Source of the DNA: a virus
Virus record (IMG/VR): IMGVR_UViG_3300042868_006787
Location: 18,054-82,053 of that record
Direction: 5' to 3' (one strand)
DNA: 64,000 nucleotides
Every line of letters begins with the position of its first letter. Within the stretch, counting starts at the first letter, position 1. This document shows, in pieces, positions 54,919-64,000 of this stretch. Under the pieces are notes generated by a model, which saw nothing but the letters and a program-made list of their open reading frames with translations, made no database searches and was not told the DNA's origin. A program made the position numbers and the translations under genes.

Positions 54919-55101
54919 ATGACTTACACTATAAAACTAGAAACCTATAATGGCGCAGTAAAAAATATTTACTTAACCACTAAAGGACAAGTGGCTGAGT
55001 TTATTAACACTTATCCAAACCAATTACCTGTTGGCGTATCTGTTAAATTAGATTGCGATATGCTAGGGATTAGAGGAACGCTAAGAGGTAAAAAACAATG
55101 A
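54919..55101 (+). CDS. Small early protein, paralog of 52732-52917
   Basis: GAAAGG RBS, start MTYTIKLET. Confidence 0.7.
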   Translation: MTYTIKLETYNGAVKNIYLTTKGQVAEFINTYPNQLPVGVSVKLDCDMLGIRGTLRGKKQ

Positions 55102-55247
55102 TTAACTCTGTTATGCGTTTTGATTGTAATGATTGCAATGGGCAAGGTCTTATCTTTTGGGGTAATGACCTTGACTACAATGTGGAAAAATGCGAGTGTA
55201 ATGATTTCGCACTAGGAACTTTATTTACTACGAAAGAGGCTGACTAA
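55098..55247 (+). CDS. Zn-finger microprotein, paralog of 55751-55915
   Basis: CNDCNGQG...GN..DY.V..CECN. Confidence 0.6.
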   Translation: MINSVMRFDCNDCNGQGLIFWGNDLDYNVEKCECNDFALGTLFTTKEAD

Positions 55248-55439
55248 ATGACTAGAAAAGACTATATCAAAACCGCAAACATATTGGCTGGATTTGTAGA
55301 TGAAGTTCCACAAAACACTTATGAAGATTTAGTTCAAGAGTTTGCTGAGTGGTTCAAATCAGATAACGAAAACTTTGACTTTGCAAGATTTGAAAAGGCT
55401 TGCGGAATTGATGAGATTGGATTAATAAATGTTAACTAA
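55248..55439 (+). CDS. Hypothetical phage protein
   Basis: MTRKDY...F..DN.NFD.ARF..AC, a recurrent small phage protein pattern. Confidence 0.65.
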   Translation: MTRKDYIKTANILAGFVDEVPQNTYEDLVQEFAEWFKSDNENFDFARFEKACGIDEIGLINVN

Positions 55440-55592
55440 TTTAGATGTGATTGCAATAATAATTGCGCTACTTGGTTGCTTAACTGTTATGGGTTTATTT
55501 TGGAAACAAAATATTGCACAACAAAAAGAAATTCGCAGATTGCAAATTGCGTTGCGAACTGAGCGACTTAAAAACAAATAAACAAAAGGCCC

Positions 55593-55608
55593 TAGAACAT
55601 ACGTTCGA
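55593..55608. promoter_or_regulatory. LexA (SOS)-like box, actinobacterial/Gram-positive type
   Basis: TAGAAC-ATAC-GTTCGA, one mismatch to TCGAAC-N4-GTTCGA. Confidence 0.55.
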
Positions 55609-55704
55609 AAGGCCCGGCGCTGACGGCGTGTCGCAATCAATAGTCTTTACGTGTGGTTAAGATCACACCCCAGATTCTCCAGATTATGGTGTCTAATTAG
55701 ATTT

Positions 55705-55726
55705 TGTCGGTTGTATCTGATAGGAT
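55705..55726 (+). promoter_or_regulatory. PafBC-type promoter
   Basis: TGTCGG-TTGTATCTGA-TAGGAT. Confidence 0.65.
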
Positions 55727-55750
55727 AAAGATATAAAGAAAGAAGGCAAA

Positions 55751-55915
55751 ATGGGTAAAGTAAAAGCAAGCGTAATGGATATATTGGAGTGCGATAGTTG
55801 TTATGGCTATGGTTGGCAATTCGTAGGAAATGCTATAGACTATGATGTATGGGCGTGCGAGTGTAATCCTTACAATATCCCTGCCGACAACCTACTAGAT
55901 TGGAAACTAAACTAA
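55751..55915 (+). CDS. Zn-finger microprotein, paralog of 55098-55247
   Basis: CDSCYGYG...GN..DYDV..CECN. Confidence 0.6.
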   Translation: MGKVKASVMDILECDSCYGYGWQFVGNAIDYDVWACECNPYNIPADNLLDWKLN

Positions 55916-56124
55916 TGGAATATACTTATTCACTTACTACTTCGTATGACGGAGAGTTAATTCATACCCTGCGAGTTAGCGATTTGTTTGACGCCGTTCA
56001 TGCTTGGGATAAATGCGTGGACTATGGCTTTGCTAAAGAATACGCAACCTATAACTTGTCTGACCCAACAGGTAAGATGTATACTAAAACCTTCTACACC
56101 AACGGAAAGGTATCAATTAAATAA
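55915..56124 (+). CDS. Hypothetical early protein
   Basis: TAATG coupling at both ends. Confidence 0.6.
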   Translation: MEYTYSLTTSYDGELIHTLRVSDLFDAVHAWDKCVDYGFAKEYATYNLSDPTGKMYTKTFYTNGKVSIK

Positions 56125-56408
56125 TGGGATCAATAACAGCAATAGGTTTAGCAGATACAACGCTAGACCTAGAAACACAATTAAAGTATCACTTGCAAGG
56201 TAATCATTATCCACCAATACCAACAGTAATGGTGCAGCCTTGCATCGAGGCTATTGACGCTTACTATGATGAGGACTACTCTCGTAAAATAGAGTTGCCA
56301 ATTGTTGATGGATTCCAGATTAGTTGGAAGGGTAATACTTGGACTACCGCTAGTGCATTGGTATCACACGCACACCTAGAGTGGTTTATCGAGCCAGTAG
56401 ATGAGTAA
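56124..56408 (+). CDS. Hypothetical early protein
   Basis: 94 aa, HLQGNHYPP. Confidence 0.65.
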   Translation: MGSITAIGLADTTLDLETQLKYHLQGNHYPPIPTVMVQPCIEAIDAYYDEDYSRKIELPIVDGFQISWKGNTWTTASALVSHAHLEWFIEPVDE

Positions 56409-56489
56409 AGACTTGCAAGATAAACTAGATGCAGTTGCGCTAATCTTAGAGCCTATTCTATGGGAAACACTAGCAGAAATTGAGGAACA

Positions 56490-56729
56490 ATGAAAACATT
56501 AGAAAACGATGATATTATTCTAATTATGGATTACTATAAAGTTGATATGTTAACTGCAGGACAGTTAATGGTTGACGATAACATTCTTGTTGATGGCGAG
56601 GTTGTTTGTATTACTGAAATAATTTCATTAGCCGATGGATACACTTTAGAAATTATAAATGATTTTGGTGAAAGAGATACTATTGAAGTTTCTGAGTATC
56701 AGCAATTTGATTTAATGATGTTGAAATAA
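56490..56729 (+). CDS. Hypothetical acidic protein
   Basis: 79-aa ORF with GAGG RBS. Confidence 0.55.
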   Translation: MKTLENDDIILIMDYYKVDMLTAGQLMVDDNILVDGEVVCITEIISLADGYTLEIINDFGERDTIEVSEYQQFDLMMLK

Positions 56730-56813
56730 GAGGCGCCCGGCCAATGTCCGTTTTGTCCCATTTTGTTAATTACGTATACTTGTATTTTTCCCCTAAAAAT
56801 GTTATACTTAATT

Positions 56814-57536
56814 ATGACCCAATTAAAGAGATCGCATGATAGAAAGGTCGCTAACCTTGTTACAAAAAATGGAAAGCAAGCCGCAATTGCAAACACGTTC
56901 GGATTACCCGCAGGAAAAAACTTTTCATGTCCTGGTGCTACGTCTATCTGCGAGACTGTTTGCTACGCTGGGAAACTTGAAAAACTATTCAAAGGAGTAA
57001 AGGCTAACCTCCTTCACAATTGGGAGTTATTAAAAGACGCAGACGAATCAACTATGATAAGTCTATTAGATAATATGATTAATGATTTTAAAAAAGATTG
57101 TGAAAAGAAAAAAGCCCCACTACTATTTCGCATTCATTGGGACGGTGATTTCTTTAATGACACGTACACCAAAGCATGGAAGCAGATCATCCTTAACAAT
57201 GCAGATATAAAATTTTGGGTATATACACGAGTAGAAGCAGCAGCCTTAATGCTTAAGGGTATTGATAATCTATCTTTATACTATTCAACAGATAGCGAGA
57301 ATAAGCAAATAGGTGTTAGTTTAAAGAAAGATCATGGAGTGCGCCTTGCATACCTTGCACAGAATTTTGCTATAGGTCAAGCAGATATGAAAAAATTGTT
57401 TGATAAACCTGGCGCTAAGTGTCCTGAGAACCTAAAAGCCATTCCCCTAATCTCAAATGCTGGAAGTGCTTGCGTATCATGCGGATTGTGTGTATACTCT
57501 AAAAGCGATATTGTTTTCTCATCATCTAAAAAATAA
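56814..57536 (+). CDS. GP88-like (radical-SAM-related) Fe-S protein
   Basis: FGLPAG..CPGATSICETVCYA...FRIHWDGDF...FWVYTR...CVSCGLC; TGTTATACT 5 nt before ATG. Confidence 0.7.
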   Translation: MTQLKRSHDRKVANLVTKNGKQAAIANTFGLPAGKNFSCPGATSICETVCYAGKLEKLFKGVKANLLHNWELLKDADESTMISLLDNMINDFKKDCEKKKAPLLFRIHWDGDFFNDTYTKAWKQIILNNADIKFWVYTRVEAAALMLKGIDNLSLYYSTDSENKQIGVSLKKDHGVRLAYLAQNFAIGQADMKKLFDKPGAKCPENLKAIPLISNAGSACVSCGLCVYSKSDIVFSSSKK

Positions 57537-57642
57537 GGAGTGGTGCTTGGAACTCTTAATAGGACTATCAATTATATTCGTCTATTTATTGTTTGCTGGT
57601 CTAGGACACTAAATGTCCGTTTTGTCCGTTTCTATACGCTGG

Positions 57643-57683
57643 TGTGAGATACATCACAGATATCACATCTCAAAATATGAGAT
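57643..57683. promoter_or_regulatory. Perfect CRP-type box plus ATCTCA-N5-TGAGAT palindrome
   Basis: TGTGA-GATACA-TCACA at 57643; palindrome at 57667. Confidence 0.65.
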
Positions 57684-57761
57684 TATTAGAAATATAACTT
57701 GTATTTTTGACCAAATAATGTTATTCTTAGGTAGTAAGCCAAACCAACAAGAAGGAGAACC

Positions 57762-57926
57762 ATGTCCGTATCAACCGCAACATACAAAGTAGGCGACACC
57801 TACACATCACAAAAATCAAAGGTAGTAGGAACTATTACCGAAATTGTGCCAACTAACAAGAACACAGTTAGAGTTAAGTTAGATGTTAATGGCTCAACTC
57901 GCTGGACTACTTGGACAGCAAAGTAA
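57762..57926 (+). CDS. Small beta-rich protein (54 aa), paralog of 58521-58691
   Basis: AAGGAG RBS; Y.VGD...S.K..V.G.I....P.......RV.L. Confidence 0.65.
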   Translation: MSVSTATYKVGDTYTSQKSKVVGTITEIVPTNKNTVRVKLDVNGSTRWTTWTAK

Positions 57927-57928
57927 TC

Positions 57929-57971
57929 TTAGCCTAGTGGCTAAAGTCCTGAGCATGACCAAAAACTGCTC
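57929..57971 (+). ncRNA. Hairpin + H-type pseudoknot motif, copy 1
   Basis: TTAGCC/GGCTAA hairpin, then GTC-CT-GAGCA-T-GAC-CAAAAAC-TGCTC. Confidence 0.6.
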
Positions 57972-58011
57972 AACTTAAAAGCCCCACTAACAGAAACGGA
58001 AACCCATCACA

Positions 58012-58434
58012 ATGGCAAGAAGCAAACCCATCAGCGTAAAAATCGCTACTGCTAAGGTTATTACAGCCTTAGAAAACAGATTAGCCGAACTAGAGGCTAA
58101 CTATAAAACACAAGACGAGAACGAGGCAAAGTTCCAAACCCAAATAGACGCTTGGAAAAAAGAACTATTTGCTTTTGCTATCGCTAATGTTTCTAAGGCA
58201 GAAAACCTTAGAACTAACTATCGCCAATGGAACAACAACCTTAATGTTGATTTTGATTTAACAGTTAAAGAAGGCGAGTTCCCTGCTGAACCTGAGCGTA
58301 AGTTTGAGCAAATCCATGTTCATACTTATCGTGAGCAGAAAGAGGAAATGGAAAACGCTATCCGTATCCTTAAAATGACCGACGAGGAAACAGTTAGCAC
58401 TAGCACATATAACGCTATCGCTAGATACCTTTAA
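58012..58434 (+). CDS. Hypothetical coiled-coil protein
   Basis: 140-aa helical ORF. Confidence 0.7.
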   Translation: MARSKPISVKIATAKVITALENRLAELEANYKTQDENEAKFQTQIDAWKKELFAFAIANVSKAENLRTNYRQWNNNLNVDFDLTVKEGEFPAEPERKFEQIHVHTYREQKEEMENAIRILKMTDEETVSTSTYNAIARYL

Positions 58435-58520
58435 TAGTTTGGGGGTATTTGACTATGCCCCCAAAATATGTTAGACTAGATAAGTAATGACCCAAACCCA
58501 AACAGAAAGGCAAGACCCAA

Positions 58521-58691
58521 ATGACACTAGGCGGATACACATACCAACTAGGTGATTTATTCACCACAAGCAAAACAGGTATTACAGGTAGAATTGTAAA
58601 GTTCTCACCTATTAACTCTAAGACCACTAGAGTATCCTTACAATTAGCAAATGGCGCAAGACGCCTTGCTATGGTAAGCACAACTAAATAA
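58521..58691 (+). CDS. Small beta-rich protein (56 aa), paralog of 57762-57926
   Basis: GAAAGG RBS; Y.LGD...SK...G.I....P.......RV.L. Confidence 0.65.
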   Translation: MTLGGYTYQLGDLFTTSKTGITGRIVKFSPINSKTTRVSLQLANGARRLAMVSTTK

Positions 58692-58692
58692 T

Positions 58693-58770
58693 TTATCTCT
58701 GATAAGCACTTGGCTCATCTGCTAAGTTATTCCTGAGATAAGACTCCTGAGCATGAGTTCTAAACTGCTC
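58693..58770 (+). ncRNA. Hairpin + pseudoknot motif, copy 2
   Basis: TTATCTC...GAGATAA, then GACTC-CT-GAGCA-T-GAGTT-CTAAAC-TGCTC. Confidence 0.6.
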
Positions 58771-58905
58771 ACCTTTTAATTGCCCCGCAAAAACCCGGGC
58801 ACATGTGATGTAGATCACGTCCCACTATGTGAGACTAATTAAGAACTGAACTTGCATTTCACAGGCCATGGTGATATTATTGTATTAACAGAAAAGGAAC
58901 CCCTA

Positions 58906-59403
58906 ATGAGCGAAGTAATGTTACAAGATCAGTTAACTGTTTCTTATAATCCCAACCTACTTGTGACCTACAAGTATATACCTGAACTGACACCTTCACA
59001 TGGTGTGCAACTAGGGGAAGAGCCAGCAGCAACATTCATGACTGATAAAGTTACTGAGATTGAATGGCAACTTCATAAGTCACGAGAGTATGCAGCAAGA
59101 TCATCTGCATTGGCTGCAGAGCGACGTGGTGACATTGAGTGGCTTGAAGAGCACATTGTTGAATGGTATGACCCAAACTATTCCAAAGAAGAAGTTTTAA
59201 AAGCGCTAGCAGAACACTTTGCTATTAATCCTATGAAGGAGATTAGCGTATACGGAACTGTTACATTCAGCGGAACAATACAGGTGCCACTGGATGAGGT
59301 TGAAGATTTTGACCTAAGCAATGTAACCATTGACGCAGAAATAAGTTCATATGACTATGAAGCGGACCTAACTGTGGACGATGTATCACTGGAAGAGAAC
59401 TAA
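58906..59403 (+). CDS. Hypothetical acidic protein
   Basis: AAGGA RBS before MSEVML. Confidence 0.65.
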   Translation: MSEVMLQDQLTVSYNPNLLVTYKYIPELTPSHGVQLGEEPAATFMTDKVTEIEWQLHKSREYAARSSALAAERRGDIEWLEEHIVEWYDPNYSKEEVLKALAEHFAINPMKEISVYGTVTFSGTIQVPLDEVEDFDLSNVTIDAEISSYDYEADLTVDDVSLEEN

Positions 59404-59442
59404 TAAGAGATCTGTAGCATCCGCTGCAGGGACCGTTTAAAT

Positions 59443-59487
59443 TTGATAGGGGGCTATCAAGATCCTGGACATGATCATAAACTGTCC
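59443..59487 (+). ncRNA. Hairpin + pseudoknot motif, copy 3 (covariant)
   Basis: TTGATAG/CTATCAA, then GATC-CT-GGACA-T-GATC-ATAAAC-TGTCC. Confidence 0.65.
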
Positions 59488-59563
59488 TATTAAAATGCCC
59501 GGCCCGCCCGAAATGTCCGATTTGTACTATTTAAGAAGATTAAACCATTTCCCCCAATCCTAT

Positions 59564-59592
59564 TTGACATTGTCAGCCATGACTGCTAAACT
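59564..59592 (+). promoter_or_regulatory. Dual SigA (-35 TTGACA) and PafBC-type promoter of the DUF932 gene
   Basis: TTGACA-T-TGTCAG-CCATGACTGC-TAAACT. Confidence 0.65.
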
Positions 59593-59618
59593 TAGTTAAA
59601 ACGATCGAAAGGAAAAAA

Positions 59619-60635
59619 ATGGCCCATGAGTTAGAAACTCAAAACGGTGTGGCAAGTTTTGCATCATTCCGTGAACCTGCATGGCACAATCTTGGTACTG
59701 TATTTGATACTGAGAAAAACACTAACGAAATGTTAGTTGCTGCTAATCTTAATAATTGGAATGTTAGACTAGAGGATTTAGAAATCCCATCTAGTTTAGT
59801 ATCTGACAAACAATATCAATATGTTGTTCGCACAAATCCTACTGACAAATCTCAAACTGATGTTTTGGGAATTGTTGGTGAGCGTTATGTTCCACTACAA
59901 AATGAAGATTTATTTTCATTCGGTGATAATATTCTTGATGGTGGTGGACGATGGGAAACTGCTGGCTCTCTTAAGGGTGGGCGTGTAGTATTTGGCTCTC
60001 TTGCATTAGAGCGTGAAACTGTATTAGACCCAAATGGTGTGGCAGATGTTGTTAAAACTTATTTGCTTATCAACACATCACACGATGGCTCAATCGCTAT
60101 TCAAGCAAGCATAACACCCGTTCGTGTTGTGTGCGCTAATACTCTTAATGTTGCACTTAACCGTACACGCAAGAAAGATGGCGTCAAGCAATCTTTCAAA
60201 ATCCGTCATACTCAAACTGCTCAGGGCAAAGTTGCTGTTGCTCGTCAAGCATTAGGTATGGCTAATTCATACATGGACGCATTTGATAAAATGGCTCATG
60301 CTATGATAACAAAAGAAATCACCGCACAAGATTTCAATAACATTATTCTTGCTGCATATCCTAAACCTGAAACCGATAGCAAGGGCTCTCTAAAGAAATG
60401 GGAAAACAAAGTAGATATGATTAACGATATCTATACTGGAGAGTTTAACGGAATGATTAGTGGAAATGCTTGGGGTGCGTTCAATGCACTAACTGAGCGT
60501 TTAGACTGGTATCGTTCTGCTCGTGGTGGTAATAGCGAAAGCATGTTTGCTGCTGCTTCTGGATTTGACCCTGTAATAAATGCAGAGAAAAATCGTTTGC
60601 TAACTATTGTTCAAAATACTTTGCAACTAGTTTAG
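59619..60635 (+). CDS. DUF932 family (phage/plasmid TIGR03299-like) protein
   Basis: MAHEL...REPAWH.LG...LG.VG.RY..LQN...ETAGSL.GG..VF...SHDGS...TPVRVVC.NTL...IRHT. Confidence 0.85.
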   Translation: MAHELETQNGVASFASFREPAWHNLGTVFDTEKNTNEMLVAANLNNWNVRLEDLEIPSSLVSDKQYQYVVRTNPTDKSQTDVLGIVGERYVPLQNEDLFSFGDNILDGGGRWETAGSLKGGRVVFGSLALERETVLDPNGVADVVKTYLLINTSHDGSIAIQASITPVRVVCANTLNVALNRTRKKDGVKQSFKIRHTQTAQGKVAVARQALGMANSYMDAFDKMAHAMITKEITAQDFNNIILAAYPKPETDSKGSLKKWENKVDMINDIYTGEFNGMISGNAWGAFNALTERLDWYRSARGGNSESMFAAASGFDPVINAEKNRLLTIVQNTLQLV

Positions 60636-60640
60636 CAATA

Positions 60641-60668
60641 AAATCCTGAGCATGATTTAAAACTGCTC
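60641..60668 (+). ncRNA. Pseudoknot motif, copy 4, abutting tRNA-Asp
   Basis: AAATC-CT-GAGCA-T-GATTT-AAAAC-TGCTC. Confidence 0.6.
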
Positions 60669-60672
60669 CGCT

Positions 60673-60746
60673 GGTCCCATAGATCAATTGGTTAGATCGT
60701 TACCCTGTCACGGTAAAGGCTACGGGTTCAAGTCCCGTTGGGATCG
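60673..60746 (+). tRNA. tRNA-Asp(GTC)
   Basis: GGTCCCA/TGGGATC acceptor, GATC/GATC D-stem, TTACC-CTGTCAC-GGTAA, ACGGG-TTCAAGT-CCCGT; no CCA. Confidence 0.92.
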
Positions 60747-60840
60747 CAAGTGGGCCCGGGCATGACTATTTAAATAATAACACACAATTGTTTCATTAAG
60801 AACGCTTGACTTTTTTCCCAGTTGCCTGTAAAATATTAAT

Positions 60841-61062
60841 ATGACCCTAAACGTAGAAATATATGAAATGGATTACTCATGCTCTCCTGGTGGAGTTAAC
60901 TGTTGGGAAGTATCTATTGACGAGTGGTGTGTCTCTGATTTTAAAACCGCAGGGGACGCAATACAATACGTGCTTGACAAATACCCTTATGATGAGTTAA
61001 ACTTAAATGTAAAATCCCTTAACTGGTACTTTAAGGAGTATGCAGATGATTACGCAGTTTAA
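60841..61062 (+). CDS. Hypothetical protein (probably leaderless)
   Basis: TTGACT-N17-TAAAAT, 6 nt before ATG. Confidence 0.6.
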   Translation: MTLNVEIYEMDYSCSPGGVNCWEVSIDEWCVSDFKTAGDAIQYVLDKYPYDELNLNVKSLNWYFKEYADDYAV

Positions 61063-61606
61063 ACCCAAAACCATAAACCAATTAGTAGAAACCATATACG
61101 AGGATAATTTCTCACACCTAGATCTAATAGACAACATGGCTAGCGGTGATTGTGATTGTCGTATCCATATCACTCTTAATACTATCTTAGAATATTGGGG
61201 TGAGTAATGTCAATGCTAGGGTATGAAAGAGATGATTTAGATAATATGGTTCTTGCAGTTGAATCTGCTCTAACTACCGTGAATTCTGACGATGATCCTT
61301 GGCTACACAGAAACCTTACACAAGCCTCTGACTTCTTGCAAGGCCTATGGGCAGAGGGGTACTTTGAATAATGGCTCCTCAATATTCTCAAGACCACGGT
61401 GCAATTATAGATAAAATTATGGAACTTATAAACACAGATGGTGAGGTCCTGTCTGATGAAGAGGTTGTTAATAGTATTAGGGGACTTCTTGAAGAGAACC
61501 CTCAAACCTATTGGGGTGGAGTGTGATGTAGATCACCTTACGATACCTTGTAATTTTTCCCAGTTCGTAGTAAAATTGTATTAAGAACCCTAGAGAAAGA
61601 AGCCCA

Positions 61607-61930
61607 ATGCCCAAGTTAGTAGAACTTACAGAGGATGAATGGTTTAAACAGTTCAAGCCTATCCCAAACCATTTAGACGAGAATGCCTCATTCAATGACG
61701 GTGAACATGGCTATATGTTTGAGACATATGGTGATGAGGTAGAGTTTGTTAGAGACCATGCGTTTCTACATCCCAACACTGTATGGACTTACTGTGACGG
61801 AGATAACGGTGGTACGTATATCTCTGACGGTATGCATATGGTTAATAGGATTGGTTACTTTGTAACTACCGTGCCCTACGATGACAAACAGTATTATCAG
61901 ATACAACTAATTGCAGGAGAGGACGACTAA
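61607..61930 (+). CDS. Hypothetical phage protein
   Basis: 107 aa; promoter and CRP-like box upstream. Confidence 0.7.
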   Translation: MPKLVELTEDEWFKQFKPIPNHLDENASFNDGEHGYMFETYGDEVEFVRDHAFLHPNTVWTYCDGDNGGTYISDGMHMVNRIGYFVTTVPYDDKQYYQIQLIAGEDD

Positions 61931-62487
61931 TGCATACCCTACATTATCTAGCAGTTGAAGCAGATAACAAGCAAGAGGCTTTTGACAAAGTTGTTGTAAG
62001 CCTACAAACAAACGAAGACGGATACCGCATAGGCGATTGGTCAGATTGGCACGTCGTTGGCGGAGGAAGGTGGAGCACTAATGCACAAAAATCTAAAGAT
62101 TTTATGGACGGTTATAACCATGACAGTACTGATGTTATTGGCTATGCTGAAAATAAAGAAAAGTTCCAAGAAGTAATTAAGGATATCTTAAGGTTCCGCT
62201 CTCAAACCATGAACAGAAACATAGTAGAGATTAAGACTGATAAGTTTATTAGTCAAATGGTCGACTATGCTTCAGAGGGTGGCAGGGGTCCCTGGAATGG
62301 GGATACCCTAATGAATGTTTATTCTATTAAACAAGCAGCAGAAATGCTCATGGGCTCTTGGACATCCGACAGTGGGTTTTACGATCTTCAAGAACATGTC
62401 TCAGAATTCGAGTATTTAAATGAGCGACTTGACAAACCTGAACAGTCTGCTCTACAATATCTAGTACCAGTAGACTTTCACTTCTAA
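61930..62487 (+). CDS. Hypothetical phage protein (WSDW.VVGGGRW...VDFHF family)
   Basis: Coupled ORF. Confidence 0.7.
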   Translation: MHTLHYLAVEADNKQEAFDKVVVSLQTNEDGYRIGDWSDWHVVGGGRWSTNAQKSKDFMDGYNHDSTDVIGYAENKEKFQEVIKDILRFRSQTMNRNIVEIKTDKFISQMVDYASEGGRGPWNGDTLMNVYSIKQAAEMLMGSWTSDSGFYDLQEHVSEFEYLNERLDKPEQSALQYLVPVDFHF

Positions 62488-62496
62488 GGAGACCCA

Positions 62497-62829
62497 ATGA
62501 TAAAAACAAAAACCTTAATCCTAGCAGGCCAAATAGGAATTGATAGCGGACAAGCAATGGTTGGCGACCCATGTTATTTAGAGCAATGGGATACTAACCA
62601 AAATGATGAGTGGAATATTGACGGCAAGCAAGGGCAATATTCTTATCATGGCGCAAGTGCCACCACACTTTCTAATGCTTACGGTCAGTTAGGTAATGGC
62701 ACGGCAGTAGTATTTAATACAGGATATGGCGATGGCGTATATCCAGTCTATGTTCAGATGAACGAGGACGGCAGAGTTTCTAAAGTCGTAATCGATTTCG
62801 AGGGGGACCTAGATGAGGAGAATGACTAA
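62497..62829 (+). CDS. DUF4241-like protein
   Basis: IGIDSGQAMVGDP...TGYGDG.YPVY...VVIDF. Confidence 0.6.
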   Translation: MIKTKTLILAGQIGIDSGQAMVGDPCYLEQWDTNQNDEWNIDGKQGQYSYHGASATTLSNAYGQLGNGTAVVFNTGYGDGVYPVYVQMNEDGRVSKVVIDFEGDLDEEND

Positions 62830-62974
62830 TGGCTACATGGGATGTTGAAATAATCTTTGAGCCCACAGGTACTTATATGAATTTTGAATATGAGACTGAC
62901 ACTGAAGACGAGAACGATATCTTTAATGAGATAACAAATCAAATATCAATTATACCTGAGAGAACGGATGACTA

Positions 62975-63346
62975 ATGGGAGCACGCTGTACATTCGTATT
63001 TAAACAATCAGAGGACCTAGCAGTAGCACTGTACAGTCATTGGGGCGAAGACAGTATGTATACAGATCTGGCTCAGGCCCTAAAGCATGCAGCGGTACGT
63101 AAAGGGGATACAGAATACTATACCCGCATGGCTATTAGTTATTTGATGCAAGACTCTATCTTGGATGAGACAGGGTTTGGAATCTATGCATGTAATCCTA
63201 ATGACTTAGGGTTTGCGGACCATCCAATATTAATCGACCTAACAGATAATACTATTAGTCATGATGGCGTAGACCACAAAGACATTGATAGTTTTATTTC
63301 TTATAATTGCTCTACGGATACGCCCGTAGGAGCGCTGCAGGGGTAG
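62975..63346 (+). CDS. Hypothetical phage protein
   Basis: MGARC...LYSHWG. Confidence 0.65.
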   Translation: MGARCTFVFKQSEDLAVALYSHWGEDSMYTDLAQALKHAAVRKGDTEYYTRMAISYLMQDSILDETGFGIYACNPNDLGFADHPILIDLTDNTISHDGVDHKDIDSFISYNCSTDTPVGALQG

Positions 63347-63440
63347 GGTCACCACCTGCTAAAAACGAGGGTAGGGCACCGACTAATGGGTGGTTTGTGT
63401 CCTACCCCATTTTTTGATATACTGGGGAGTAAGGAGAGTT

Positions 63441-63674
63441 ATGTATCGTATTAGTAGGGCTAAGCAAACAACCAACGAGGAGAAGGTTGCTATTGCTATG
63501 GGCAAACACCTTGCTGACTTTTATCTTGATTTAGAAAAGGTTGGATATTATTTGGCTAAGGCAACCCCTTATTTAATTTATCGCAGGGCATTAGAAGTGC
63601 TGGAAAGTGCTAAGTTTCAAGAGGACGAGATAGAGCATGCTAAATTACAGTATGATCAAAGAAGGCTTCCATAA
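63441..63674 (+). CDS. Hypothetical protein
   Basis: AAGGAG RBS before MYRISRAK. Confidence 0.6.
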   Translation: MYRISRAKQTTNEEKVAIAMGKHLADFYLDLEKVGYYLAKATPYLIYRRALEVLESAKFQEDEIEHAKLQYDQRRLP

Positions 63675-63701
63675 CAATGAATAGTTTGGTATACTTATAA
63701 G

Positions 63702-64000
63702 ATGAGCGAAACAGGACCAACCACTAAGTTAAAAATTCTTTCTGAGTTGTGGTTAACTTATCGTGATGAAGAAGCCTTTGAAGAGTTTGTAGACTATAAC
63801 GATATAGGACTACCACTAGCCTACGCTATTCATACTGACATTGTTGCTCCTTCTCCAAGGTCTGATCTTTATACACAAGAAACCTTTGATATGCTTTTGG
63901 CATCTCTAGGGTTTGTAGATGAGGCAGGGGATATTGTAGATAAAGGCTGGGAAGATTTAGAAGATATGTTAAATAATTCTGAGTCTTATATTAAAGATAA
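63702..64000 (+). CDS. Hypothetical protein (partial, probably leaderless)
   Basis: TGGTATACT 6 nt before ATG; open to the window end. Confidence 0.6.
   Translation, partial: MSETGPTTKLKILSELWLTYRDEEAFEEFVDYNDIGLPLAYAIHTDIVAPSPRSDLYTQETFDMLLASLGFVDEAGDIVDKGWEDLEDMLNNSESYIKD

What the first reader, a model, noticed from the sequence alone, without database searches (positions are those of the whole stretch)
57929..60668. Four-copy hairpin + H-type pseudoknot RNA motif with covariation in both stems
Seen: consensus [S1]-CT-[S2]-T-[S1']-..AAAC-[S2'] at 57946, 58742, 59461 and 60641. S1/S1' are GTC/GAC, GACTC/GAGTT, GATC/GATC and AAATC/GATTT; S2/S2' are GAGCA/TGCTC three times and GGACA/TGTCC once (a double compensatory change). 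The CT, T and AAAC linkers are invariant. Copies 1-3 are directly preceded by unrelated hairpins (weaker in copy 4). All lie just 3' of stop codons, and copy 4 ends 4 nt before tRNA-Asp. Inference: a structured RNA under selection, such as a small ribozyme or processing signal, an exonuclease-blocking element, a ligand- or protein-binding aptamer, or a mimic of type III antitoxin pseudoknots. I cannot assign it to a known family.
Basis: partly seen in the sequence, partly recalled or inferred. Interest (0 to 1): 0.85.

Follow-up and report, generated by a model that had tools for sequence, protein, structure and literature searches.

The report
Phage gene-end RNA pseudoknot family
The four repeats are real copies of a tiny (about 27-base) interlocked RNA fold that many unrelated phages and some bacteria place a few bases after a gene's stop codon or just before a tRNA gene. 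It is in no RNA catalogue I could search and probably acts as a roadblock that shields message ends, but that is untested.

Summary
Observation confirmed. Four + strand copies (57946-57971, 58742-58770, 59461-59487, 60641-60668) match nnUC-CU-GNNCA-U-GAnn-(n)nAAAC-UGNNC. The pattern gives 4 hits against 0.01 expected, with no further copy in the 82-kb phage record.

The motif is widespread. All nine base pairs of both stems covary. The unpaired CU and AAAC are nearly invariant.

It lies between genes on the coding strand. There is a hard floor of 7 nt between the stop codon and TCCTG. 19 of 261 copies sit 4-14 nt upstream of a tRNA. No Rfam 15 family matches, and 7 literature searches found no description.

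The closest known relative is the coremin / xrRNA-WCC pseudoknot of eukaryotic RNA viruses. The coremin requirement for a second hairpin is not met.

Most likely it is a protein-independent roadblock at cistron boundaries, against exonucleases and perhaps ribosomes. This and the side it protects are untested. The preceding hairpins are not part of the family.

This scan had already reported the same motif on at least 8 other genomes.

The parts
57946..57971 (+). Pseudoknot copy 1. S1 is 3 bp, L1 is CU, S2 is GAGCA/UGCUC, L2 is U, L3 is CAAAAAC. S1 starts 19 nt after the TAA at 57924-57926 of a 54-aa ORF. The next ATG is at 58012.
   Evidence: 43.8 bits, E 2.7e-10
58742..58770 (+). Pseudoknot copy 2. 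S1 is 5 bp including one G-U, S2 is GAGCA/UGCUC, L3 is CUAAAC. TTTT at 58774-58777 follows. It lies 50 nt after the TAA at 58689-58691.
   Evidence: 33.8 bits, E 1.4e-7
59461..59487 (+). Pseudoknot copy 3. S1 is GAUC/GAUC and S2 is GGACA/UGUCC, a double compensatory change relative to the other copies. L3 is AUAAAC. It lies 57 nt after the TAA at 59401-59403. A sigma-70-like TTGACA-17-TAAACT lies at 59564-59592.
   Evidence: (38.3 bits)
60641..60668 (+). Pseudoknot copy 4. S1 is AAAUC/GAUUU, S2 is GAGCA/UGCUC, L3 is AAAAC. It starts 5 nt after the TAG at 60633-60635 of the DUF932 gene and ends 4 nt before tRNA-Asp.
   Evidence: 44.4 bits; DUF932, E 7e-48
60673..60747 (+). tRNA-Asp (GTC), immediately downstream of copy 4. 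The same order, DUF932 gene then pseudoknot then tRNA-Asp, recurs in 15 of the 261 copies examined (the window's own among them).
59619..60635 (+). DUF932-family gene (338 aa) whose stop codon anchors copy 4. This is the commonest upstream gene family in the sample, with 24 copies.
57929..57944 (+). 6-bp hairpin just before copy 1. It is local context, not a conserved part of the motif.
58693..58741 (+). Long imperfect hairpin just before copy 2. It contains a half-copy, TCCTGAGAT, at 58731-58739. It is local context, not a conserved part of the motif.
59443..59460 (+). 7-bp hairpin abutting copy 3. Its fold is not better than shuffled sequence (z -0.7). It is local context.

Best explanation
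Each copy folds in the mRNA into a compact H-type pseudoknot.

**Proposed fold.**
- S1 is about 4 bp and S2 is 5 bp, stacked on each other.
- The invariant L1 (CU) would lie in the deep groove of S2.
- The invariant AAAC of L3 would lie in the minor groove of S1.
- The fold class resembles the luteovirus frameshifter and the coremin / xrRNA-WCC pseudoknots.

**Proposed function.**
- It works without a dedicated protein, as a mechanical roadblock at cistron boundaries.
- Enzymes that thread single-stranded RNA stall at it. These could be 3'-5' exonucleases arriving after RNase P, RNase E/Y or terminator cleavage, the 5'-3' exonuclease RNase J, and possibly ribosomes.
- The neighbouring message segment therefore keeps a defined, protected end.
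- It sits as close to the stop codon as a terminating ribosome allows without unfolding it.

**Which side is protected.** I favour protection of the upstream message's 3' end (about 0.3 of my belief) over protection of the downstream RNA's 5' end (about 0.15). It may do both.

**Shown and inferred.** The fold, its conservation and its placement rules are shown. Roadblock activity, the enzyme blocked and the direction are inferred.
For: **Fold.**
- In 124 of 128 IMG/VR matches the free NN of S2 pair: 122 are exact complements (1 in 16 expected by chance) and 2 form G-U pairs.
- S1 is at least 4 bp in 113 of 126 copies, against 19% when arms are swapped between copies.
- On 88 canonical copies the covariation score is 0.453 against 0.135 in shuffles (0 of 500 reach it). 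Slid controls give 0.04-0.09.
- A relaxed scan finds 88 further copies with 1-4 departures from the 'invariant' letters, against 0 in reversed sequence. Those departures are compensatory at every one of the 9 pairs.

**Placement.**
- The stop-to-TCCTG distance has a hard floor: 35 copies at 7 nt, 20 at 8, 13 at 9, and none at 0-4 or 6 (154 copies).
- That leaves 5 nt before S1. From recalled knowledge, this is the stretch an A-site-stop ribosome keeps single-stranded.
- In intergenic regions of at least 120 nt, 54 copies hug the upstream stop, 12 hug the downstream start and 70 do neither.
- 19 of 261 copies lie 4-14 nt upstream of a tRNA (Asp, Asn, Leu, Ser, Lys). None has a tRNA ending within 24 nt upstream. 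RNase P cleavage would therefore leave the knot as the 3' end of the upstream RNA.
- A terminator-like hairpin lies within 50 nt downstream in 17 of 239 copies and within 50 nt upstream in 2 of 239.
- At one orthologous intergenic site the relatives L032, L065, L175 and L240 carry the knot, whereas the window has a plain hairpin at 58438-58465.

**No dedicated partner.** No gene family is shared by all loci.

**Analogy, from papers I read in part.**
- Coremin has a short hairpin closed by C-G and an essential AAA followed by C and U in its spacer. It stalls Xrn1 and scanning ribosomes and stimulates -1 frameshifting. The frameshift screen that yielded its variants was run in E. coli (PMC6546385 passages; PMC10321173 Introduction and part 1 of 2 of Results; PMC10520033 abstract and Introduction).
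- A flavivirus xrRNA also blocks bacterial RNase J1 (PMC5760640 passages).
Against: **No experiment.** The RNA runs available were contigs only and show no RNA ends.

**More conserved than a barrier needs.** A plain hairpin suffices as a 3' exonuclease barrier. That does not explain six nearly invariant unpaired letters across phyla.

**Contexts that do not fit a 3' cap.**
- In about 24 anaerobe MAG loci the stop codon of a tiny ORF lies inside the knot and a terminator follows, so a 3' cap would be redundant there.
- In 4 Firmicutes phage lineages the knot lies 30-65 nt upstream of the scaffold and major capsid genes. In 3 of the 4 it lies after a terminator. This fits a 5' cap for the downstream message better.

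**Limits of the coremin analogy.**
- Coremin needs a second hairpin directly 3' to stall Xrn1. Here such a hairpin occurs in 23 of 243 copies, against 22-49 of 243 at control offsets.
- Frameshifter pseudoknots without it did not stall Xrn1 (abstract of PMC10321173).

**Host range.** A Vibrio phage carries the knot. By recall, its host class lacks RNase J.

**Sampling bias.** The pattern-based samples fix the conserved letters, which biases the placement statistics towards consensus copies.
Confidence: 0.45

Rival explanations
1. A ribosome-directed element. The knot sits at the mouth of the mRNA channel when the stop codon is in the A site. It would tune termination, block read-through or post-termination ribosomes from entering the next element (a translational insulator), or, in the tiny-ORF class, stall ribosomes before the stop.
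For: - The exact 5-nt floor between stop codon and S1, with the peak at the floor, matches the geometry of frameshift and read-through stimulators (recalled).
- In the tiny-ORF class the stop lies inside the knot at a fixed offset of -6 in 17 of the 24 loci where the ORF was found (26 examined).
- Coremin blocks scanning ribosomes and stimulates -1 frameshifting, and the frameshift screen was run in E. coli.
- The knot directly abuts folded RNAs: tRNAs and the DUF2800 RNA.
Against: - There is no extended reading frame past the stop. Median extension is 7, 8 and 5.5 codons in the 0, -1 and +1 frames.
- No slippery sequence is conserved upstream.
- Many copies lie 20-250 nt from any stop, including window copies 2 and 3.
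- The distance floor is equally explained by the knot merely needing to stay folded.
Confidence: 0.15
2. A specific binding site (aptamer) for a conserved host protein or a small molecule. By the usual criteria it counts as a 'sophisticated' RNA: several phyla, a pseudoknot and invariant unpaired letters. It would regulate the stability or expression of its neighbours in response to that partner.
For: - Unpaired CU and AAAC are nearly invariant across phage and bacterial phyla while the stems vary freely.
- Weinberg et al. 2017 state that RNAs in several phyla with a pseudoknot and several nucleotides at least 97% conserved usually perform sophisticated tasks (PMC5737381 passages).
- The size and architecture resemble the smallest riboswitch aptamers (recalled).
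Against: - There is no consistent neighbouring gene or pathway.
- Several copies occur per phage behind unrelated genes.
- There is no expression platform. The RBS lies 15-40 nt away and does not overlap the knot, and only 27 of 125 viral copies are followed by a U-run.
- The junction nucleotide L2, where a ligand-pairing base would sit, varies (U, A or C).
- The loop conservation is what a triplex-stabilised knot needs anyway.
- No Rfam riboswitch matches.
Confidence: 0.13
3. A processing signal. It would be either a very small self-cleaving ribozyme or the recognition element of a host endoribonuclease (RNase P, E, Y or III) that cuts polycistronic phage RNA at gene boundaries.
For: - It lies at boundaries between cistrons and 4-14 nt before tRNAs.
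- Downstream there is an A at +1 (76% in viral copies) followed by a G-poor, pyrimidine- and A-rich stretch that could be a cleavage site.
- The stacked helices followed by A resemble an acceptor-stem mimic (inference).
Against: - At 27 nt with only two short helices it is far below any known natural ribozyme (recalled).
- No Rfam ribozyme family matches.
- The coaxial helix is 9-10 bp, shorter than a tRNA minihelix, and no CCA follows.
- The sequence beyond +1 is not conserved.
Confidence: 0.1
4. A transcription element. The knot would act as, or assist, a terminator or pause signal, or as an RNA-polymerase-modifying antiterminator.
For: - A U-run lies within 12 nt downstream in 27 of 125 viral copies, against 2 of 125 at the upstream control position. 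In bacterial copies the figures are 17 and 9 of 120.
- Window copy 2 and the S. aureus phage copy are followed by U-runs.
- Promoter-like sites follow window copy 3 and the tRNA that copy 4 abuts.
Against: - 78% of viral copies have no U-run.
- Many copies lie 15-40 nt upstream of the next RBS inside apparent operons.
- A separate canonical terminator often follows the knot.
- Promoter-like hits in the window are not above the shuffled level: 7 found against a mean of 8.4.
Confidence: 0.07
5. An anti-defence decoy, for example a mimic of type III antitoxin RNA or another immune RNA ligand.
For: - It is a small pseudoknot found in phage early regions.
- Its neighbours, DUF932, DUF3768-like and SSB-like genes, are typical of early or leading regions.
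Against: - Copies are single and dispersed (about 700-1200 nt apart in the window), not tandem arrays.
- It also occurs in chromosomal small-gene contexts and in late head operons.
- I did not search for toxin genes.
Confidence: 0.03

Closest known systems
Coremin motif (xrRNA-C) and its Watson-Crick variant xrRNA-WCC, from beny-, cucumo- and other eukaryotic RNA viruses (Dilweg et al. 2019 PMC6546385; 2023 PMC10321173 and PMC10520033)
   Same: - A short first hairpin closed by C-G.
- The first loop letter is a pyrimidine followed by G. The published loop rules are YGAD and YGNNAD; here the loop is C-U-G-N-N-C-A-U.
- A spacer whose 5' part tolerates insertions and whose AAA, followed by C and U, is essential. 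Here this is the variable-length L3 ending in the invariant AAAC-U.
[quoted passage not shown]
- The variant's S2 is Watson-Crick, as here.
   Different: - S2 is 5 Watson-Crick pairs here, against 3 in xrRNA-WCC and a non-canonical contact in coremin.
- The loop is 8 nt here, against 4 or 6 in the forms whose loop rules those papers give (they also report Xrn1-resistant forms with longer loops).
- The second hairpin that coremin needs for Xrn1 resistance is not conserved here.
- The carriers are DNA phages and bacteria, which have no Xrn1.
- Placement is tied to stop codons and tRNAs.
- Exonuclease resistance has not been tested.
Luteovirus-type -1 frameshifting pseudoknots (BWYV and PLRV, as described in the Introduction of PMC10321173)
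   Same: A compact H-type knot with a 1-2 nt L1, a single junction nucleotide and an A-rich L3 that could line the S1 minor groove. It begins 5 nt or more after the A-site codon.
   Different: The codon in front is a stop codon, not a slippery heptamer. No overlapping extended frame follows. The knot is intergenic.
RNase III hairpins of T7 early RNA and REP-type 3' stabiliser hairpins of bacterial operons (recalled, no call)
   Same: Structured elements between cistrons of polycistronic messages that set and protect segment ends.
   Different: Those are plain, sequence-variable hairpins. This is a pseudoknot with invariant loop letters shared across phyla.
GP20-a and GP20-b RNAs (RF02991, RF03003) and other candidate RNAs upstream of phage GP20/scaffold genes (Fremin et al. 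2023, PMC10690425 passages)
   Same: In S. aureus, Lactobacillus, Geobacillus and Streptococcus phages the knot lies in the same place, just upstream of the scaffold (GP20-like) and major capsid genes.
   Different: No Rfam hit at E up to 1 in those loci. The knot is much smaller, and most of its copies lie elsewhere.

Membership tests
Coremin / xrRNA-C | 5' hairpin (hp1) of 3-5 bp with a C-G (or U-A) loop-closing pair | tested here: met
   S1 is typically 4 bp. Its closing pair is C-G in 88 of 88 canonical copies, though the search pattern fixed it. In the relaxed scan it stays C-G in all but one listed copy. The rule comes from passages of PMC6546385.
Coremin / xrRNA-C | hp1 loop follows YGAD (4 nt) or YGNNAD (6 nt) | tested here: inconclusive
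   The loop here is 8 nt, C-U-G-N-N-C-A-U/A/C. It has the same order of letters with two extra positions. The papers report that longer loops can work, but the text I read gives no rule for 8 nt.
Coremin / xrRNA-C | Conserved spacer with an essential AAA followed by C-U; its 5' part tolerates insertion | tested here: met
   L3 is 4-13 nt long and always ends in AAAC, followed by U (pattern-fixed). AAAC is kept in nearly all relaxed hits.
Coremin / xrRNA-C | A second hairpin (hp2) directly 3' of the spacer, required for Xrn1 resistance | tested here: not met
   A hairpin starting 0-3 nt after the knot occurs in 23 of 243 copies. Control offsets +20 to +80 give 22-49 of 243.
Coremin / xrRNA-C | Stalls a 5'-3' exoribonuclease in vitro | not testable with these tools
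   Needs enzyme assays.
xrRNA-WCC | [quoted passage not shown] | tested here: met
   S2 is paired in 100% of 88 copies, with compensatory changes. All five pairs covary in the relaxed set. S2 is 5 bp here against 3 bp there.
-1 frameshift stimulator pseudoknot | A slippery heptamer 5-9 nt upstream and an overlapping extended frame | tested here: not met
   A stop codon occupies that place. Median open extension is 7, 8 and 5.5 codons in the three frames, over 154 copies.
Any Rfam 15 family (including preQ1, hammerhead, twister, pistol, hatchet, HDV-like, GP20-a/b) | Covariance-model match | tested here: not met
   Nothing lies at the motif at E up to 10 in window 55000-64000. In a 61-nt slice the only hit is a chance SNORD64 match of 11.8 bits against a gathering score of 40. 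Nothing lies at the motif in 8 cultured-phage loci at E up to 1.
Type III toxin-antitoxin antitoxin RNA | Tandem array of repeats next to an endoribonuclease toxin gene | tested here: not met
   The four copies are about 700-1200 nt apart and separated by genes. Cultured phages carry one copy each. I did not search for the toxin gene.
Intrinsic terminator | GC-rich hairpin immediately followed by a U-tract | tested here: not met
   A U-run within 12 nt occurs in 27 of 125 viral and 17 of 120 bacterial copies. In the window only copy 2 has TTTT. The terminator scan reports none at the four copies on the + strand.

The most novel reading that the evidence does not exclude
This is the first natural exoribonuclease-resistant RNA class of prokaryotes and their DNA phages. 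A 27-nt triplex pseudoknot would by itself halt bacterial processive RNases (RNase J, PNPase, RNase R) and perhaps ribosomes, punctuating polycistronic messages. It would share its fold solution with the coremin xrRNA of eukaryotic RNA viruses, which would mean either convergence or transfer across domains.
Probability: 0.35. Interest if true: 0.9.

Novelty: new variant of a known kind. Interest (0 to 1): 0.8.

Why it matters
**If it is a roadblock.**
- A 27-nt element with all nine pairs covarying and six nearly invariant loop letters would add a new, very common layer of gene-expression control in phages: segmental message protection without a protein.
- The element occurs in phages of Actinomycetota, Bacillota, Cyanobacteriota, Pseudomonadota and Patescibacteria, and in some bacterial chromosomes.
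- It would extend the xrRNA concept from eukaryotic RNA viruses to bacteria.
- It would give synthetic biology a minimal, portable insulator or stabiliser.

**If it is a binding site instead.** It would be among the smallest natural aptamers.

**Either way.**
- It deserves an Rfam family.
- It is directly testable in cultured systems: Mycobacterium phage Labelle, Arthrobacter phage Molivia and the S. aureus phietaviruses.

Tried and rejected
**RNA evidence.** Four lake metatranscriptome runs were laid on window 57700-60900. They are stored as contigs only, so they show no RNA ends, strand or level. Contigs of three runs stop at 59444-59452, just before copy 3. This may be strain variation and I draw nothing from it.

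**Associated protein.**
- All-against-all clustering of ORFs in 120 sources found no family shared by most loci. The largest, DUF932, is in 30.
- Upstream and downstream ORF clustering and a PHROG scan of 103 downstream ORFs show mixed functions: primase/helicase, PhoH, nucleases and one scaffold protein.

**Closest cultured relative.** Streptomyces phage Jay2Jay has the closest DUF932 (53% identity) but carries no copy.

**E. coli.** A BLAST search with one 31-nt variant found nothing in 5,426 genomes. This is a weak test, because other stem variants would be missed.

**Tiny ORF.** It has no significant Pfam or NCBIfam match.

**Literature.**
- Seven searches found no description of this motif in phages or bacteria.
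- I searched passages of two 2026 genome-language-model preprints and of Fremin 2023 without finding it.
- Supplementary tables of Fremin 2023 (10,006 candidates) and of Weinberg 2017 were not visible and might contain it.

**Readings rejected.**
- preQ1-I-like riboswitch: no Rfam hit and no queuosine context.
- boxA-like NusB/E site: the UGCUC covaries with its partner, and the sequence after it is not conserved.
- Selenocysteine reading of the tiny ORF: the stop precedes the knot in 7 of 24.
- DNA-level element: pseudoknot covariation together with strict coding-strand orientation.

Full report
**The observation**

- The window is bases 18054-82053 of an 82,053-base IMG/VR phage record.
- The pattern CCTGNNCATGN{4,14}ACTGNNC hits these four places and no other in the window, against 0.01 expected from shuffles. 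It hits no other place in the whole record.
- A covariance model built later finds the same four at E 1e-7 to 1e-10. The next best hit has E 0.84.
- Copy 3 carries GGACA/UGUCC where the others have GAGCA/UGCUC. S1 differs in all four copies while staying paired.
- tRNA-Asp(GTC) starts 4 nt after copy 4.

**It is a large family, and both stems covary**

- Of 128 matches, 122 have exactly complementary NN, where 1 in 16 is expected. Seven pair combinations occur. Two more form G-U pairs.
- S1 was not part of the pattern beyond UC/GA. It is at least 4 bp in 113 of 126 copies, against 19% when 5' and 3' arms are swapped between copies.
- On an ungapped alignment of 88 distinct canonical copies (out of 132 matches, 92 canonical), the two free S2 pairs are paired in 88 of 88. 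The third S1 pair is paired in 88 of 88 with four Watson-Crick types plus one G-U. The fourth is paired in 78 of 88. A fifth candidate pair is mostly unpaired.
- The covariation score is 0.453 against 0.135 in shuffles (0 of 500 reach it), and 0.04-0.09 when partners are slid.
- Because the pattern fixes 17 letters, I also scanned all loci for the bare architecture (4-bp S1, 5-bp S2, L3 of 4-11 nt) and counted departures from the fixed letters.
  - 195 copies show none and 88 show 1-4. In reversed sequence there are 0 with up to 4 departures.
  - The departures are compensatory at the 'invariant' pairs too: UC/GA becomes AC/GU or CC/GG, G-C becomes A-U, C-G becomes U-A or U-G, and A-U becomes G-C.
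  - All nine pairs therefore covary.
- L2 is U, A or C. L1 (CU; CC in a Vibrio phage) and the AAAC of L3 are nearly invariant.

**Who carries it**

My own estimate of chance matches is about 3.
- Many hits are Saccharibacteria and other Patescibacteria, Clostridia, Bacteroidota, Aminicenantes, Thermodesulfobacteriota and Actinomycetes. Some MAG contigs are clearly phage, for example L175 and L201.
- BLAST with two 31-nt variants finds it in cultured phages:
  - 83 S. aureus phage records.
  - Streptococcus, Lactobacillus, Bacillus, Geobacillus (D6E) and Moorella phages.
  - Mycobacterium phage Labelle, Arthrobacter phage Molivia and Paracoccus phages.
  - Cyanophages.
  - One Vibrio phage group of 27 records.
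- Five cultured phages hold one copy each. In B236 it is a variant that the pattern missed, seen.
- The window's phage is probably an actinophage of a freshwater host.
  - Its DUF932 protein is closest (54% identity) to large Streptomyces phages.
  - A neighbouring gene is Pfam GP88.
  - The stretch is held in many lake metagenome runs.
- The closest cultured relative tested, Jay2Jay, has no copy.

**Placement rules**

- The motif lies between genes, on the strand of the flanking genes.
- For 154 copies with an upstream frame of at least 50 codons, the distance from the stop codon to TCCTG is never 0-4 or 6 nt. It is 5 once, then 7 in 35 copies, 8 in 20 and 9 in 13, and it decays from there.
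  - This leaves 5 nt between the stop and S1.
  - By recalled ribosome biochemistry, that is what a ribosome with the stop in its A site keeps unwound. The knot therefore sits as close as it can while staying folded.
- Six copies in that count have the stop inside the knot (offset -6). They belong to the tiny-ORF class described under 'A separate class'.
- In long intergenic regions 54 copies hug the upstream stop, 12 hug the downstream start and 70 do neither. My gene calls are crude.
- 19 of 261 copies lie 4-14 nt upstream of a same-strand tRNA (15 Asp, plus Asn, Leu, Ser and Lys). Only 4 have a tRNA ending within 300 nt upstream, the nearest 25 nt away.
- After the knot comes A (76% of viral copies), then a G-poor stretch.
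- A U-run within 12 nt follows in 27 of 125 viral copies, against 2 of 125 at a control position.
- A terminator-like hairpin lies within 50 nt downstream in 17 of 239 copies and within 50 nt upstream in 2 of 239.
- A hairpin directly before or after the knot is no commoner than at control offsets. The hairpins before window copies 1-3 are therefore local features.
- At one orthologous site, after the gene ending ...YNAIARYL, four relatives have the knot where the window has a plain hairpin at 58438-58465.

**A contrasting context**

- In S. aureus phage B236, Lactobacillus phiEF-1.1, Geobacillus phage D6E and Streptococcus Javan271 the knot lies 30-65 nt upstream of the scaffold (GP20-like) and major capsid genes.
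- It lies 10-125 nt after the previous gene. In three of the four it comes just after a terminator-like hairpin with a U-run.
- This fits a 5' cap for a highly expressed downstream message better than a 3' cap.

**A separate class**

- About 24 MAG loci of anaerobes have a tiny conserved ORF, MKRF..PR.AHC..GC, with synonymous third-position changes.
- Its stop is usually the UGA inside the knot, and a terminator follows.
- Their neighbourhoods are chromosomal, not phage.

**What it is not**

- No Rfam 15 family matches. This includes riboswitches, the small ribozymes and GP20-a/b.
- The DUF2800 RNA (RF02960) directly abuts the knot in L164 and L174.
- There is no extended frame past the stop, so it is not a classic recoding site.
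- Copies are dispersed, so it is not a type III antitoxin array.

**Comparison with known elements**

- Earlier agents of this scan reported the same motif on at least 8 other genomes and named coremin as the closest relative. I took that as a lead and read the papers.
- Coremin is a short hairpin with a C-G closing pair and a YGAD or YGNNAD loop.
  - Its 10-nt spacer tolerates insertions at its 5' end.
  - Its AAA cannot be changed, and the letters after it are C-U-A-C.
  - A second hairpin is required for Xrn1 resistance.
  - A non-canonical loop-spacer pseudoknot is proposed.
  - Sources: PMC6546385 passages and the PMC10321173 Introduction.
- Selected and natural 'Watson-Crick' variants form a 3-bp S2 (part 1 of the Results).
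- Coremin stalls Xrn1 and scanning ribosomes and stimulates -1 frameshifting. Ordinary frameshifter knots do not stall Xrn1 (abstracts; Introduction).
- A flavivirus xrRNA also blocks bacterial RNase J1, which argues for a general mechanical block (PMC5760640 passages).
- The phage knot shares the closing pair, the loop letter order, the insertion-tolerant spacer ending in AAAC-U, and the topology. It has a longer canonical S2 and lacks the second hairpin. It works like coremin at best, and I do not file it as a member.

**Mechanism**

- I commit to a protein-independent roadblock at cistron boundaries (0.45).
- The stop-codon floor, the tRNA and terminator placement and the interchange with a plain hairpin favour a 3' cap for the upstream message.
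- The coremin analogy and the Firmicutes head-operon context favour a 5' cap for the downstream one.
- The knot may do both.
- The rivals are ribosome control, a specific aptamer, a processing signal and a transcription element. None is excluded, and none of these functions has been tested by experiment.

**Novelty**

- The motif is not in Rfam 15, and none of my 7 literature searches found it.
- Supplements that might list it were not visible.

Noticed in passing
L213:2064-2150 (-), L208:135-236 (+), L170:5289-5363 (+), L163:5087-5191 (-), and about 20 further loci: A tiny conserved ORF of about 18-25 aa, MKRF(M/T)(V/I)PR(V/I/T)AHCxxGC, occurs in Aminicenantes, Thermodesulfobacteriota, Syntrophorhabdus and other anaerobe MAGs. 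It shows synonymous third-position changes. Its stop is usually the UGA inside the pseudoknot, and an intrinsic terminator follows. It has no significant Pfam or NCBIfam match.
   Followed up: partly
L164:912-1071 (+); L174:1-137 (-): A DUF2800 RNA (Rfam RF02960; 157 and 121 bits) starts 1-2 nt after the pseudoknot in two Clostridia prophage-like loci. The knot directly abuts another folded RNA.
   Followed up: partly
window 58438-58465: A plain 8-bp hairpin (UUUGGGGG...CCCCCAAA) lies after the gene ending ...YNAIARYL. Relatives L032, L065, L175 and L240 carry the pseudoknot at the orthologous site. A TTGACT-17-TAGACT promoter-like site (58449-58477) overlaps the hairpin.
   Followed up: partly
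window 58731-58739: A half-copy of the motif's 5' part (TCCTGAGAT) lies inside the hairpin just upstream of copy 2. It is also present in relative L108. It may be a remnant of a duplication or decay.
   Followed up: no
L245:2501-2526, L246:1501-1529, L249:1501-1526, L250:1501-1525: In S. aureus, Lactobacillus, Geobacillus and Streptococcus siphoviruses the knot sits just upstream of the scaffold (GP20-like) and major capsid genes. L246, L249 and L250 also share a CUUAUGCAA box 7-33 nt further on, and L245 and L246 have a hairpin (CGUGG...CCACG-like). A larger 5' UTR element may exist there.
   Followed up: partly
L244:1497-1527: Vibrio phage D456 and 26 sister records carry a copy with L1 = CC instead of CU. 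The annotated genes around it lie on the opposite strand (short hypothetical calls).
   Followed up: no
window 59444-59452: Contigs of three lake metatranscriptome runs (X19, X20, X22) end here, 9-17 nt before copy 3. The cause could be an RNA end or strain variation.
   Followed up: no
window 56763-57536 and 59619-60635: A GP88-family protein (Pfam PF17338, E 5e-51) and a DUF932 protein whose best cultured matches are large Streptomyces phages (54% identity). Together with the lake metagenome holders, this points to a freshwater actinobacterial host.
   Followed up: partly
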